Positions 661 through 58,583 of a DNA stretch of 64,000 nucleotides are shown here, one piece after another. Below the pieces are notes generated by a model. That model saw only the letters and a program-made list of their open reading frames with translations. It was not told the origin of the DNA and did not search any database. Made by a program: the position numbers and the translations under genes. This DNA comes from Candidatus Thorarchaeota archaeon. Lineage in GTDB: Archaea; Asgardarchaeota; Thorarchaeia; Thorarchaeales; Thorarchaeaceae. Numbering within the stretch: the stretch's first letter is position 1; every line of letters starts with the position of its first letter. The stretch covers positions 1-64,000 of the forward strand of contig JAEOTX010000039.1 of NCBI GenBank assembly GCA_016839605.1, in the 5' to 3' direction.

Positions 661-897
661 CTAGGATCCACGATTCCATTGCTTATACGCAAGGTCCATA
701 TCTTTCTCTGTGATTGTCTTCCGACCTGCATGCTCAGTGAGTTCAAAAGCACGCTTTGCGAGATTTTCTCCGATCTCCTCAAGAATCTGTGCTAATCGCT
801 CAGCACCCTTGTCACTGACGCGTCCAGCGCCAGCCTTTCTGATTAATCTGTCAACAGGCGCTACTGGAATTATCCTGTCCTTTCTAGACCTTGGCAA
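661..897 (-). CDS. Archaeal histone (HMfA/HMfB family)
   Basis: IPVAPVDRLIRKAGAGRVS...HAGRKTITEKD histone-fold motifs; TTG start; short basic N-terminus. Confidence 0.95.
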   Translation of the reverse strand: MPRSRKDRIIPVAPVDRLIRKAGAGRVSDKGAERLAQILEEIGENLAKRAFELTEHAGRKTITEKDMDLAYKQWNRGS

Positions 898-1048
898 AAC
901 TTCTCTCTCCGCGTATTAGGCACACACTGGGCTCTTCGAAGCTGAATGATATTTAAAGCCTCTTACATCTCCCCGTGATGTCTTTAGAGGCCTAAGAGGG
1001 CTTTTCTGACACTCTTGAGGTTTCTATTGAGAGCAAAGGAAAGCGCGC

Positions 1049-2233
1049 CTAACCCGTTCGAAGTGTAATAATACTCGCCTGACCAACCTGATTTTTCAGA
1101 ACATCCAAGTTCATGTCCTCTTCAGCTTTCTGAACATCGCTTGGCTTTCCACGTGTAACAGGATATTTGGGCGCGAGTGTACAACATGAGAGACCTTCCT
1201 CTGCGAACTTGTAAGTTCCAATCTTATGAGCCAAGGCTTCAATGTCCGACTTGTCGTCTCCTGCACATGGTCTCAGAATTGGAAAGTCGCACACTGCTGT
1301 ATTGATTGCTCTCAGATTCATTGTTGTCTGAGAGGCCTGCTCCCCAATGATCTCCCCAGTGACGATTGCATCTGCATCTTCCATTATGGCAATCTCTCGT
1401 GCCATTCTTAGCATGTTCCTCTTGCAGAATAAGCAGGTCATCTTTGGTGGGCCATGGGTTTCCGCCTCACTAAGATCTTCTCCATGGGGGACAATATAGA
1501 GCTTGACTTCAAAGTTGTGAATGTAATTAGCTAGTAGTTGTGCTTGCTCTGTCACAATGGCCTTGCAGTCATCGTTTGCATAAGGAGTGTTGTCGAAATT
1601 GACAAACACAGGAATACATCCTCGCTTCATCACCTTAAAGGCGGCAATGGGAGAGTCTAAGCCGCTAGAAAGGGTACACACTACTTTACCTTGCGATCCC
1701 GTAGGCATTCCGCCCACACCATCGATGGTTTCTACAAAGAGGTATGCACTCTGATTTCGAACCTCAACGTAGAGCGATTGATCTGGAGATGTAAGGTCCA
1801 CAGAGAGTTCCAGCTCTGGAAGGCCCATCAATATGGCAGCGCCAAGTTTCTCCCGGACATCCTGACTTGAGTAATCATGAGTTCCTACCCTTCTGGAACC
1901 CACTGCAAAAGACTTGTTCTTTGTAAAGCTCCCTCGTGCCATCTCCACCCCTGTTTCAAGAATAGTATCTAGATCGGATTCAATGACGACAACAGGAGAA
2001 ACGGAAACAACACCGAATATGTTGGATGCTATGTCACTGGCCTCTTGGGTCACATCTGTGACAATGAAAATCCTGCCGTACTCCTTTCGCACCTTAGAGA
2101 ACTTGACACCAGCCTCTCGCATTGCTGATTTGATGTGCTTAATGAGCAAGTCTTCCATACGCTTTCGTGTCTGTTTGGACTTGATTCCAATTTCGCCGTA
2201 TCTGACAAGTACTTCGGAATATTCTGGGCTCAT
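1049..2233 (-). CDS. thiI: tRNA 4-thiouridine synthase ThiI (THUMP + PP-loop, no rhodanese domain)
   Basis: VRYGEIGIKS, GGMPTGSQGK, LSSGLDS PP-loop, CLFCKR, GEQASQT; start set to ATG 2233 (ORF track 2257). Confidence 0.93.
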   Translation of the reverse strand: MSPEYSEVLVRYGEIGIKSKQTRKRMEDLLIKHIKSAMREAGVKFSKVRKEYGRIFIVTDVTQEASDIASNIFGVVSVSPVVVIESDLDTILETGVEMARGSFTKNKSFAVGSRRVGTHDYSSQDVREKLGAAILMGLPELELSVDLTSPDQSLYVEVRNQSAYLFVETIDGVGGMPTGSQGKVVCTLSSGLDSPIAAFKVMKRGCIPVFVNFDNTPYANDDCKAIVTEQAQLLANYIHNFEVKLYIVPHGEDLSEAETHGPPKMTCLFCKRNMLRMAREIAIMEDADAIVTGEIIGEQASQTTMNLRAINTAVCDFPILRPCAGDDKSDIEALAHKIGTYKFAEEGLSCCTLAPKYPVTRGKPSDVQKAEEDMNLDVLKNQVGQASIITLRTG

Positions 2234-56981: not shown

Positions 56982-57419
56982 CTAATCAGACTCATCCTCC
57001 GAAGTATCAGCGACGACTTCATCTTCGGGTTCTTCAGTCTCTTCGTCTTCCTCTGTTTCTTCCTCGCCGGCTTCCTCCTCATCCTCCTGTTCTGCTACTT
57101 CTTCCTCTTCCTCTTCTTCCTCCTCATCAGAAACGGCAGAAGGAACAAGTCTGTAGACATAGAAATAGCCAATGAAGACGCTCACTAAGGAGAGTAGAAG
57201 TGTTATCCAGAAAGCACCACCTGTGCCAAACCATGTCACAGGATTGATTACGAGTTCACTTCTTGCTGCTCCGAAGACAACAGTCTGGAACCATATTGGA
57301 ACTCCAAAAGCAAAAGGTATGCAAATCACAACCAGTAGGATAATCGACATGATAATCTCAGCTGTGTAAATCAGGATTTTTCGTAGTGTGCTATCTACCG
57401 CTTTCTTTGCAGCCGACAT
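56982..57419 (-). CDS. Two-TM membrane protein with acidic C-terminal tail
   Basis: Two hydrophobic helices followed by poly-E/D. Confidence 0.65.
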   Translation of the reverse strand: MSAAKKAVDSTLRKILIYTAEIIMSIILLVVICIPFAFGVPIWFQTVVFGAARSELVINPVTWFGTGGAFWITLLLSLVSVFIGYFYVYRLVPSAVSDEEEEEEEEEVAEQEDEEEAGEEETEEDEETEEPEDEVVADTSEDESD

Positions 57420-57499
57420 TTCGTTCGCCTTGGATTGCCGACTTGGGCTTGCCTTTAAAACCTGCCGTCAATGGGATTGCCTGGAGAAGAAAGGGATTC

Positions 57500-57576
57500 G
57501 TACAGGGAGTCCGAGAAAGAGTTGTGATTGAGAGGAGGGAGAGGGAGGAGAGGAGATTTGTTCGGACTCCCTGTTC
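57500..57576 (-). ncRNA. Candidate stem-loop sRNA 1 with CU-rich loop
   Basis: Perfect 13-bp inverted repeat 57502-57514/57562-57574; TTTATATA (57607-57600) exactly 23 nt upstream of a GAA start; U-rich tract downstream. Confidence 0.6.
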
Positions 57577-57712
57577 AATATTAAGTAGGGTAAGATTACT
57601 ATATAAAAGTATATCATATATCATATTAGCATCTATGAGGGGACTGCAGCCTCTCAGGTAATCTAGATGATCATGTTTCTTGCCAGCAGCTTTAGTCCTG
57701 AGAGAATAAGAA

Positions 57713-57790
57713 GAAGGGAAAAGCGGGGCCGGAGAACGCTTGAAGGAGGAGAGAGAGAGAGATATGAGAGAGAACGGCCCCTAGCCCTTC
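57713..57790 (-). ncRNA. Candidate stem-loop sRNA 2 with CU-rich loop
   Basis: Stems GAAGGG/CCCTTC and GGGGCCG/CGGCCCC; CTTAAATA (57821-57814) exactly 23 nt upstream of a GAA start; U-rich tract downstream. Confidence 0.58.
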
Positions 57791-57908
57791 ACCATTTACT
57801 AGCCATTAATACATATTTAAGCAAATCTTGTTTGAGGATAAATTTACCAGATATTTGGCGCTGTATAGCGAAGGAATTCATAATGCAGAATCGATATGCG
57901 TATGCAAT

Positions 57909-58583
57909 TTATGCAAGTCTTGATTTGACTACGTCTAGTATTTGTAGTAAAGAGTCGAAGACTTGAGAAGCACCCGCTTTGATCAAGTCATCCCTGGTGG
58001 TTTCTCCGGTGGTCACTCCCCAAAACTCAATCCCAGCTCTAGTTGCGGCTGCTCCATCGATTCTTGCATCACCGATGTACACGACCTCATTGGGTTGCAC
58101 GCCTATATGAGCCACCAGTTGCCTGAGGCCATCGGGATAAGGTTTGGGACTAGGAGACTCATTTCGAGTCTGGATCACATCGAATAATTCCTCCAATGGA
58201 AGCTGCTCGAGTATGACATCAACAGCAGTTCTACCATTGTTTGTGAGAATTGCAGTCTTCAGGCCAAGAATCTTCAGCTCTCGCACAACATCCATCGAAC
58301 CATCGATAAGCTCTGCATCAGTGGCAGCCCATCCTTCGTGTCCACTGAGCGTTTTGTCGACATCGTGTTCCATTCGCTTCCATTCACTAGATGAAATCCC
58401 TTTAGAGTGGAAGTATTCCCTAGCCTTCACTCTGGTGCTCGAGATACCATCAGCTGAATCGAAGAGGTCAGCAGGTGCACCTTGACTCTTAAAATATTCC
58501 TTCGTGTCTCGTCTCATGGCATCTAGAGGGAGAGCCAGAACAGTGAGGGTACCATCAAGATCAAAGAGGACCGCCTTCAACAT
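57909..58583 (-). CDS. HAD-IA hydrolase (phosphoglycolate phosphatase-like)
   Basis: FDLDGTL, LTNN, PKPYPDG, IGDARID. Confidence 0.88.
   Translation of the reverse strand: MLKAVLFDLDGTLTVLALPLDAMRRDTKEYFKSQGAPADLFDSADGISSTRVKAREYFHSKGISSSEWKRMEHDVDKTLSGHEGWAATDAELIDGSMDVVRELKILGLKTAILTNNGRTAVDVILEQLPLEELFDVIQTRNESPSPKPYPDGLRQLVAHIGVQPNEVVYIGDARIDGAAATRAGIEFWGVTTGETTRDDLIKAGASQVFDSLLQILDVVKSRLA

What the first reader, a model, noticed from the sequence alone, without database searches (positions are those of the whole stretch)
57480..57825. Two tandem, independently promoted stem-loop RNAs with CU-rich (anti-Shine-Dalgarno-like) loops: candidate new sRNA family
Seen: the ~490-nt gap holds two units of the same design on the minus strand: TATA box, exactly 23 nt, GAA start, GC-rich closing stem, ~43-47-nt unstructured CU-rich loop, U-rich tract. 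Unit 1 (57576-57500) has a perfect 13-bp stem and loop ACAAAUCUCCUCUCCUCCCUCUCCCUCCUCUCAAUCACAACUCUUUC. Unit 2 (57790-57713) has 6+7-bp stems around an internal loop, with loop UUCUCUCUCAUAUCUCUCUCUCUCCUCCUUCAAGCGUUCUC. The stem sequences differ while the architecture is kept, which points to selection on structure. Known: this spacing fits archaeal promoters; C-rich loops pair with SD sequences in bacterial sRNAs; stem plus pyrimidine loop plus U tail also describes Y RNAs, though the bulged-C Ro60 site is absent here. Inference: trans-acting RNAs that mask GGAG/GAGG ribosome-binding sites or sponge a pyrimidine-binding protein (e.g. Sm/LSm). An alternative is a DNA element: inverted repeats and purine tracts flanking an AT-rich core, such as an origin or H-DNA.
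Basis: partly seen in the sequence, partly recalled or inferred. Interest (0 to 1): 0.85.

Follow-up and report, generated by a model that had tools for sequence, protein, structure and literature searches.

The report
Two conserved Thorarchaeota small RNA genes
The gap holds two real, separately promoted small non-coding RNA genes of an uncatalogued family kept across a whole family of Asgard (Thorarchaeota) archaea; each pairs its two ends to hold open an unchanging pyrimidine-rich strand that copies the ribosome's mRNA-docking sequence, so they probably act on translation, but no transcript or target has been shown.

Summary
On the minus strand there are two units, each with a TATA box, about 23 nt of spacer, a G+C-rich end-to-end helix, a 43-47-nt unstructured CU-rich loop and a pyrimidine-rich tail.

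They are conserved genes, not chance hairpins. The gap is 73-80% identical in 12 other species of the genus. Covariance models find the unit-2 type in 58 of 86 genomes of the GTDB family (Thorarchaeota by record titles), usually once per genome. A diverged unit-1 type follows it, and then always the same 145-aa membrane-protein gene. I found no convincing copy outside the family.

The helices covary while the loop cores do not change. Those cores contain CCUCCU, as does the 3' end of this organism's 16S rRNA. No Rfam family matches.

My best reading is that these are trans-acting RNAs whose loop pairs with GGAGG-type purine tracts such as ribosome-binding sites. That step is inferred. I found no enriched or conserved extended target and no usable RNA-seq.

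A replication origin, a Y RNA and a coding reading are not supported.

Earlier agents of this scan reported the same family in other Thorarchaeota genomes. New here:
- the fixed link to the membrane-protein gene;
- a 25-nt deletion in this genome's unit 1;
- a GA-rich partner-like RNA beside the cluster in 12 of 16 genera, not found in this genus.

The parts
57821..57853 (-). Conserved block just upstream of the unit 2 TATA box. It may be a BRE or a regulator-binding site.
   Evidence: It is nearly invariant in 13 same-genus genomes, whereas the sequence further upstream diverges. It is still recognisable in other genera.
57813..57820 (-). TATA box of unit 2
   Evidence: An A/T box lies 22-23 nt before the GAAGGG start. 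It is conserved in every homologue at the same distance.
57705..57790 (-). Unit 2 RNA gene (type A). The 5' end is inferred from the promoter geometry. The 3' end is not known.
   Evidence: Models R2 and R3 match 57705-57792 at 93 and 83.5 bits. Homologues occur in 58 of 86 genomes of the family.
57775..57781 (-). Unit 2 inner helix, 5' arm. It pairs with 57725-57731.
   Evidence: Across 33 homologues, 5 of its 7 pairs show changes on both sides.
57725..57731 (-). Unit 2 inner helix, 3' arm
57785..57790 (-). Unit 2 outer helix, 5' arm. It pairs with 57713-57718.
   Evidence: All 3 modelled pairs show changes on both sides.
57713..57718 (-). Unit 2 outer helix, 3' arm
57742..57754 (-). Invariant 13-nt CU core of the unit 2 loop. 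It contains the anti-Shine-Dalgarno hexamer CCUCCU at 57744-57749.
   Evidence: These are invariant columns in A1. They are almost unchanged in 33 homologues from many genera. The 16S rRNA 3' tail of this genome carries the same hexamer.
57600..57607 (-). TATA box of unit 1
   Evidence: Exactly 23 nt separate it from GAA at 57576. A box of the same sequence type lies 31-38 nt before the G-run of the helix in most unit-1-type homologues.
57490..57576 (-). Unit 1 RNA gene (type B). The 5' end is inferred. The 3' end is not known.
   Evidence: Model R1 matches 57486-57579 at 94.9 bits. R1 also hits unit 2 at E = 0.003, so the two units are paralogues.
57562..57574 (-). Unit 1 closing helix, 5' arm. 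It forms a perfect 13 bp with 57502-57514.
   Evidence: The end-anchored comparison of 21 homologues gives 166 of 168 positions paired, with several pair types at positions 4-8.
57502..57514 (-). Unit 1 closing helix, 3' arm
57530..57556 (-). Conserved CU tract of the unit 1 loop
   Evidence: It is nearly invariant within the genus. CU-rich tracts occupy the same place in other genera, but the sequence varies more than in unit 2.
57453..57460 (-). Separate TATA box of the downstream protein gene
   Evidence: It is conserved in all genera inspected, about 35 nt before the start codon.
56982..57419 (-). Gene for a 145-aa protein with two membrane helices and a poly-Glu tail. It always follows the RNA genes.
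   Evidence: It lies downstream on the same strand in every locus with enough flank. It was found in 25 of 26 sampled genomes of the family and in 0 of 125 outside it. It has no Pfam family above threshold.

Best explanation
These are two paralogous small non-coding RNA genes, each transcribed from its own archaeal TATA promoter. They belong to an uncatalogued family confined, as far as searched, to one GTDB family of Thorarchaeota (Asgard archaea).

In each RNA the 5' and 3' ends pair into a G+C-rich helix. That helix holds a 43-80-nt pyrimidine-rich strand single-stranded. The strand's core does not change and contains CCUCCU, the same hexamer as the 3' end of the organism's 16S rRNA.

The most likely action is base pairing in trans with purine-rich GGAGG-type sequences. 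The first candidates are the Shine-Dalgarno regions of mRNAs, so that ribosome binding is blocked or competed. In other genera a neighbouring GA-rich RNA is a further possible partner.

Shown: the gene anatomy, the conservation, the covariation and the motif identity. Inferred: transcription, the RNA ends, the pairing partners and the regulatory outcome.

I put about 0.9 on 'real, conserved ncRNA genes' and about 0.45 on the whole statement including the mechanism.
For: Anatomy and folding:
- The anatomy is as described and the folds beat shuffled sequence.

Conservation:
- The whole gap is 73-80% identical in 12 other species of the genus. The promoters, helices and loops are conserved, but the spacer between the units is not.
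- Model R2 finds the unit-2 type in 58 of 86 genomes of the family, mostly as a single copy.
- R3 finds it in 21 of 26 sampled family genomes. Outside the family it gives only weak hits with no promoter or helix.
- A unit-1 type follows in tandem in most genera.

Covariation:
- Unit-2 type: 91.9% of cells paired against 81.3% in shuffles, 8 of 10 pairs changed on both sides, and 0 of 500 shuffles as high.
- Unit-1 type: 166 of 168 positions paired against a shuffle mean of 140.6, with 0 of 2000 shuffles as high.

Strand:
- TATA boxes lie at a fixed distance and T-rich tails follow on this strand.
- There are 23 G.U pairs against 10 A.C pairs.

Not coding:
- Insertions and deletions of 2, 4 and 25 nt occur among close species.

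Mechanism:
- The loops are predicted to be open.
- The invariant core contains CCUCCU, and the 16S rRNA ends in ...AUCACCUCCUAA.
- GGAGG peaks 8-16 nt before start codons in this genome.
- Several genes have a 12-16-nt perfect complement that spans the ribosome-binding site up to the start codon.
- Precedents exist for anti-RBS loops in archaeal sRNAs (sRNA41 and sRNA154, review PMC5867862) and in tandem bacterial cuckoo/CcsR RNAs (PMC4615179).
Against: - No transcript evidence. The only RNA library holding related sequence gave two 151-nt contigs at depth 2. One of them runs across the proposed unit 2 start, so it fits DNA carry-over or read-through as well as a discrete RNA.
- No excess of targets. 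Across 86 genomes, 14-nt complements of the core outside the RNA genes are about as frequent as a reversed control.
- After AGGAGG, the matching purine hexamer ranks first, but only 6 against 5.
- The best candidate site is only partly kept in the one true orthologue and is lost in paralogues.
- A 5-6-nt anti-SD match alone would not give specificity.
- The covariation alignments were fitted to the structure (A4) or anchored by a stem finder, which inflates the share of paired positions.
Confidence: 0.45

Rival explanations
1. Protein-binding or sponge RNAs. The clamped, invariant pyrimidine strand, together with the U-rich stretch just before the 3' arm, would be a platform for a pyrimidine- or U-binding protein such as SmAP/LSm, a KH-domain protein or a 16S 3'-end-binding factor. 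The RNAs would titrate or deliver that protein rather than pair with mRNAs.
For: - The core does not change over 16 genera although no conserved RNA target was found.
- A run of 3-7 U or a GUUCU lies directly before the 3' arm in most homologues.
- The genome encodes two LSm proteins.
- Each genome usually has a single copy, which looks like a housekeeping RNA.
Against: - No partner protein is linked to the locus. The only constant neighbour is a membrane protein with an acidic tail, which is unlikely to bind RNA.
- The U stretch is not universal.
- Nothing tested here separates this reading from base pairing.
Confidence: 0.25
2. Partners of another non-coding RNA or of the ribosome itself. 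The CU strand would pair with the GA-rich structured RNA found beside the cluster in most genera, or would mimic the 16S 3' tail during ribosome biogenesis or hibernation. The set would then be a decoy and anti-decoy system rather than a regulator of particular mRNAs.
For: - A GA-rich RNA lies 200-350 nt upstream on the same strand in 12 of 16 genera. It contains the exact 9-nt complement of the unit 2 core, followed by AUG.
- In one genus both sides differ and still pair.
Against: - That RNA was not found in the window's genus (0 of 16 genomes by BLAST, none by nhmmer in this genome), yet the CU cores are just as conserved there.
- In another genome the GA motif changed without a matching change in the CU core.
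- A 9-nt match between low-complexity tracts is weak evidence.
Confidence: 0.1
3. Cis-acting elements of the downstream membrane-protein gene. They would be leader, attenuator or promoter-insulating hairpins rather than free-standing RNAs.
For: The 145-aa gene always follows on the same strand. It has the same taxonomic range as the RNAs.
Against: - Each unit has its own conserved TATA box at a fixed distance, and the protein gene has a separate conserved TATA box about 35 nt before its start codon.
- In some species the units are separated from each other by 1.2-3.5 kb.
- Gene order is kept over at least 20 kb in this family, so adjacency alone says little.
Confidence: 0.07
4. A DNA-level element, either a replication origin or a purine/pyrimidine mirror repeat that forms H-DNA.
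For: The unit 1 loop contains a 23-nt perfect pyrimidine mirror repeat. An AT-rich stretch lies between the two hairpins.
Against: - The two cdc6/orc1 genes lie on other contigs.
- There is no turn in the GC skew near 57.5 kb.
- The AT-rich parts are the conserved TATA boxes, while the rest of the spacer diverges.
- G.U pairs and compensatory changes in the helices point to selection on RNA.
- The mirror symmetry is not kept in other species.
Confidence: 0.02

Closest known systems
Cuckoo / CcsR (RSs0680, ar14) sRNAs of Alphaproteobacteria (PMC4615179; PMC8034643)
   Same: - Paralogous sRNAs arranged in tandem.
- Variable stems display a conserved CU-rich, anti-Shine-Dalgarno-like loop motif.
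- They keep a fixed place next to a small protein gene.
- The unit 1 loop contains 8 of the 9 bases of their CCUCCUCCC motif.
   Different: - Cuckoo RNAs have 2-4 short adjacent hairpins per RNA, are bacterial, are co-transcribed with and processed from the mRNA of a DUF1127 gene, and bind Hfq.
- Here a single end-to-end helix closes a 43-80-nt loop, each RNA has its own archaeal promoter, and the neighbour is a membrane protein.
- No Rfam model matches.
Methanosarcina mazei sRNA41 and sRNA154 (review PMC5867862)
   Same: They are archaeal intergenic sRNAs whose loops carry anti-RBS sequence and mask the ribosome-binding sites of target mRNAs.
   Different: - There is no sequence or structural homology, and the phylum differs.
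- Those RNAs have experimentally supported targets and respond to nitrogen.
- Here neither expression nor targets are known.
C-rich-loop sRNAs of Firmicutes (RsaE/RoxS).
   Same: Unpaired C-rich motifs pair with G-rich Shine-Dalgarno regions.
   Different: - Their C-rich motifs are short and sit in small hairpin loops.
- They are bacterial.
- They are not homologous to these RNAs.
Y RNAs
   Same: The RNA ends pair into a stem around a pyrimidine-rich loop.
   Different: - No TROVE/Ro60 gene in the genome.
- No Rfam match.
- No bulged-C Ro site.

Membership tests
Cuckoo / CcsR sRNA family | 2-4 adjacent hairpins, each with CCUCCUCCC in its loop (PMC4615179) | tested here: not met
   Each unit folds as one closing helix around a 43-47-nt loop. 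The exact 9-mer is absent. The best match is 8 of 9 bases in the unit 1 loop.
Cuckoo / CcsR sRNA family | Match to the family's covariance models in Rfam | tested here: not met
   cmscan of 57000-58300 at E up to 10 lists only noise at or below 18 bits. No cuckoo or ar14 model appears.
Cuckoo / CcsR sRNA family | Co-transcribed with, and processed from, an upstream DUF1127 gene | tested here: not met
   Each unit has its own TATA box. The neighbours are a HAD hydrolase gene and a two-helix membrane-protein gene.
Archaeal trans-acting anti-RBS sRNA (kind, e.g. sRNA41/sRNA154) | An intergenic gene with its own promoter and an unpaired sequence complementary to the organism's Shine-Dalgarno motif | tested here: met
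   The TATA boxes are conserved. The loops are open and contain CCUCCU. The 16S tail and the use of GGAGG before start codons were checked.
Archaeal trans-acting anti-RBS sRNA (kind, e.g. sRNA41/sRNA154) | A discrete transcript and demonstrated repression of target mRNAs | not testable with these tools
   The one RNA library gave only two low-depth contigs. Computed target searches showed no enrichment.
Y RNA | A Ro60 (TROVE) partner and the conserved Ro-binding helix | tested here: not met
   No TROVE match in the genome, which is 80% complete. No Y RNA model match.
Archaeal replication origin | Repeated origin-recognition boxes next to cdc6/orc1, and a change in strand skew | tested here: not met
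   The cdc6 genes lie on contigs C52 and C205. There is no skew turn near the locus. The only direct repeats are chance-level 10-14-mers.
Structured ncRNA gene (generic) | Helices maintained by compensatory changes across species | tested here: met
   8 of 10 pairs changed on both sides, with 0 of 500 shuffles as high; 166 of 168 positions paired. Caveat: both alignments lean towards the structure.

The most novel reading that the evidence does not exclude
The two CU-rich RNAs would be one half of a family-specific multi-RNA system that tunes Shine-Dalgarno-dependent initiation globally. Type A would mimic the 16S rRNA 3' tail. The neighbouring GA-rich RNA of other genera would mimic an SD-AUG initiation site. 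The RNAs would titrate each other and the ribosome, possibly as SmAP-bound particles. In the window's genus the GA-rich partner has been lost or replaced.
Probability: 0.08. Interest if true: 0.85.

Novelty: new variant of a known kind. Interest (0 to 1): 0.55.

Why it matters
Almost nothing is known about regulatory RNAs in Asgard archaea, the closest prokaryotic relatives of eukaryotes. I found no paper describing small RNAs of Thorarchaeota.

Here is a compact, well-defined pair of genes with promoters, helices and an invariant exposed strand. It is present in most genomes of a whole family and has a clear, testable hypothesis. It gives a concrete entry point for studying post-transcriptional control in uncultured Asgard lineages and a ready covariance model for annotation.

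If the RNAs act on ribosome-binding sites, this would also show that tandem 'anti-SD display' RNAs arose independently in archaea and in Alphaproteobacteria.

Tried and rejected
- RNA evidence. One metatranscriptome held related sequence. Laying it gave two 151-nt contigs at depth 2, one of which crosses the proposed start. It is uninformative.
- Rfam. No match for the units or for the extra RNAs in other genera.
- Target search by duplex energy and exact complements. Several ribosome-binding sites have 12-16-nt complements, including a putative ECF-type membrane protein on C40 and two secreted proteins on C208. I rejected them as evidence for three reasons. The site is only partly kept in the single orthologue. 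14-mers are no more frequent than a reversed control across 86 genomes. The matching hexamer after AGGAGG is not significantly enriched.
- A strong 21-nt match on the rRNA contig C82. It lies inside a protein-coding frame, not in rRNA, and it depends on this genome's private deletion. I take it as chance.
- Hits of model R3 outside the family, and exact-pattern hits in Methanosarcinales, Hodarchaeota and bacteria. They lack a promoter and a helix, so I take them as chance.
- Pairing between the GA-rich RNA and the CU cores. One paired change and one unpaired change leave this inconclusive.
- MAFFT alignment of the unit-1 types (A5). The arms were not kept in register, so I counted pairs from end-anchored arms instead.
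- The downstream protein. No Pfam family is above cut-off, and the protein atlas gives only a Thorarchaeota hypothetical cluster at 0.78.
- A third CU-loop gene near the window locus. None was found within 5.5 kb.

Full report
**What is there.** The roughly 490-nt gap lies between a HAD-hydrolase gene (57909-58583, minus) and a 145-aa membrane-protein gene (56982-57419, minus).

- Unit 1 has a TATA box at 57600-57607, then 23 nt, then GAA at 57576. A perfect 13-bp helix (57562-57574 with 57502-57514) encloses a 47-nt loop that is 81% pyrimidine.
- Unit 2 has a TATA box at 57813-57820 and a start near 57790. A 6-bp outer helix and a 7-bp inner helix enclose a 43-nt loop that is 86% pyrimidine.
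- The minimum-energy folds are these helices with empty loops. Unit 1 scores z = -5.15 and unit 2 scores z = -2.57 against dinucleotide shuffles.
- Rfam has nothing here.
- This genome (3.08 Mb, 259 contigs, 80% complete) holds no other copy.

**Organism.** Contigs of the same genus and family carry the record titles 'Candidatus Thorarchaeota archaeon' or 'Promethearchaeota archaeon'. For example, the 71,618-nt contig of G012 matches one such record. One same-genus contig is titled Hermodarchaeota, although its proteins are 79-94% identical to the window's. A Snf7 gene lies 1.5 kb away. The host is therefore a Thorarchaeota-type Asgard archaeon.

**Conservation.**
- BLAST of the gap against 40 relatives finds it at 73-80% identity in 12 other species of the genus.
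- In the alignment the two promoters, both helices, both loops and the promoter of the downstream gene are conserved. The spacer between the units and the region after the HAD stop codon are not.
- I built covariance models from the genus alignments: R1 for unit 1 and R2 for unit 2.
- In the 86 genomes held for the GTDB family (16 genera), R2 finds the unit-2 type in 58 genomes of 9 genera, nearly always once per genome.
- R1 finds the unit-1 type in 29 genomes. It also hits the window's unit 2 at E = 0.003, so the two units are paralogues.
- A broader model, R3, built from 33 sequences, finds the unit-2 type in 21 of 26 sampled family genomes.
- Outside the family R3 gives only weak hits. On inspection these have no promoter and no closing helix.
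- With filters off, or by eye, a diverged unit-1 type sits 150-300 nt downstream of the unit-2 type in most further genera. In a few species inserted DNA separates the two by 1.2-3.5 kb.

**Evidence for RNA structure and strand.**
- Unit-2 type, 33 sequences: 91.9% of cells form standard pairs against 81.3% in shuffles. Eight of 10 pairs show changes on both sides. No shuffle of 500, and no slid register, comes close.
- Unit-1 type, 21 sequences from 9 genera: the first and last eight bases of the helix pair in 166 of 168 positions against a shuffle mean of 140.6. Three or four pair types occur at positions 4-6 and two or more at positions 7-8.
- Both counts lean towards the structure, because the first alignment was fitted to the model and the second was anchored by a stem finder. 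The qualitative point does not depend on that: a different G+C-rich helix sits in the same place in each genus.
- The strand is set mainly by the promoters. A TATA box of the same type lies 31-38 nt before the G-run of the helix in most homologues. T-rich tails follow the 3' arm.
- G.U pairs (23) outnumber A.C pairs (10), which also favours this strand.
- A coding reading is excluded by insertions and deletions of 2, 4 and 25 nt among close species.
- The window's unit 1 has lost a 25-nt internal hairpin that all 12 other genus members keep.

**The loop.**
- The unit-2 type keeps a 13-nt CU core (window 57742-57754) essentially unchanged across genera, followed by a conserved GUUCU before the 3' arm.
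- The core contains CCUCCU.
- The genome's 16S rRNA gene on contig C82 ends in ...AUCACCUCCUAA.
- GGAGG peaks sharply 8-16 nt before the start codons of 2,426 long ORFs.
- The loops therefore display the ribosome's own mRNA-docking sequence in an organism that uses Shine-Dalgarno sites.
- Unit-1-type loops are always CU-rich but vary more between genera.

**Mechanism.** The reading that best fits the anatomy is a trans-acting RNA whose clamped single strand pairs with purine-rich GGAGG-type sequences. Precedents are archaeal sRNA41 and sRNA154 (PMC5867862) and the tandem bacterial cuckoo/CcsR RNAs (PMC4615179 and PMC8034643).

I could not raise this above inference.
- Several genes in this genome have 12-16-nt perfect complements that span the ribosome-binding site and spacer.
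- The best of these sites is only partly kept in its one orthologue.
- 14-nt complements outside the RNA genes are no more common than a reversed control in 86 genomes.
- The matching hexamer after AGGAGG is not significantly enriched.
- Public reads gave no usable expression evidence.

A protein-platform reading (SmAP/LSm, KH-type or a 16S-tail-binding factor) therefore remains a serious rival. Two LSm genes are present.

**Context.** The 145-aa protein has two membrane helices and a poly-Glu tail. Its gene follows the RNAs on the same strand in every locus with enough flank. It was found in 25 of 26 sampled family genomes and in none of 125 outside the family. It has its own conserved TATA box.

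Gene order over at least 20 kb is also kept in the family. The adjacency is therefore suggestive, not proof of a functional link. It recalls the fixed small-protein neighbour of the cuckoo RNAs.

**An extra RNA in other genera.**
- In 12 of 16 genera (36 of 86 genomes by BLAST) a GA-rich structured element lies 200-350 nt upstream of the unit-2 type on the same strand. It has its own closing helix.
- It has no Rfam match.
- It contains the exact 9-nt complement of the unit-2 core, followed by AUG.
- In one genus both sides differ and still pair. In another genome only the GA side changed.
- It was not found in the window's genus or genome. It cannot explain the conservation here, but it may be a natural partner elsewhere.

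**Alternatives rejected.**
- Replication origin: the cdc6 genes are on other contigs, there is no skew turn, and there are no repeated boxes.
- Y RNA: no TROVE gene and no model match.
- H-DNA: a 23-nt mirror repeat exists in this genome's unit 1 but is not conserved, and the covarying helices point to RNA.

**Relation to earlier work of this scan.** Other agents reported the same family, usually as three clustered genes, in other Thorarchaeota genomes, with the same tentative reading. I took the cuckoo comparison from those notes and checked it in the papers. My tests here were run independently and agree with theirs.

**Verdict.** These are real, conserved, uncatalogued small RNA genes. The kind is known (display of an anti-SD-like strand), but the architecture and the lineage are new. 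Function is inferred only.

Noticed in passing
L098:745-950 (-), L101:~700-1100 (-), L100:~740-900 (+); not in the window: A GA-rich structured RNA-like element lies 200-350 nt upstream of the unit-2-type RNA in 12 of 16 genera. It has its own closing helix and two conserved purine motifs. It has no Rfam match and was not found in the window's genus. It carries the 9-nt complement of the unit 2 core, followed by AUG.
   Followed up: partly
L100:~930-1010 (+), L101, L078, L084 (between the GA-rich element and the unit-2 type): A further conserved element in several genera: a TATA box, a conserved 9-mer and a short hairpin with a GCGA/TCGC-type stem. It may be a fourth small transcript or a regulatory site.
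   Followed up: no
L097:~1440-1510 (G000 contig C82, 16S rRNA 3' end): The 16S rRNA gene has about 30 nt, with a 6-bp hairpin, inserted between GGAUC and ACCUCCU at its very 3' end. The gene also spans 2131 nt against a 1478-position model. Insertions or mini-introns next to the anti-Shine-Dalgarno sequence are possible.
   Followed up: no
window 57515-57561 (-): The window's unit 1 lacks a 25-nt internal hairpin that all 12 other same-genus genomes keep. This is a private deletion, or possibly an assembly variant.
   Followed up: partly
window 57531-57553: The unit 1 loop contains a 23-nt perfect pyrimidine mirror repeat. It is not conserved in other species.
   Followed up: partly
window 56982-57419 (-): A 145-aa protein with two membrane helices and a poly-Glu tail. 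It is restricted to this family of Thorarchaeota and always lies directly downstream of the RNA genes. No known family matches it.
   Followed up: partly
window 57821-57853 (-): A roughly 30-nt block upstream of the unit 2 TATA box is more conserved than a promoter alone would need. It may be a transcription-factor site.
   Followed up: no
L138 (JBHLLF010000003.1): This public record is titled Hermodarchaeota, but its genes are 79-94% identical to the window's Thorarchaeota-type genes and it carries both RNA genes. The label is probably wrong.
   Followed up: partly
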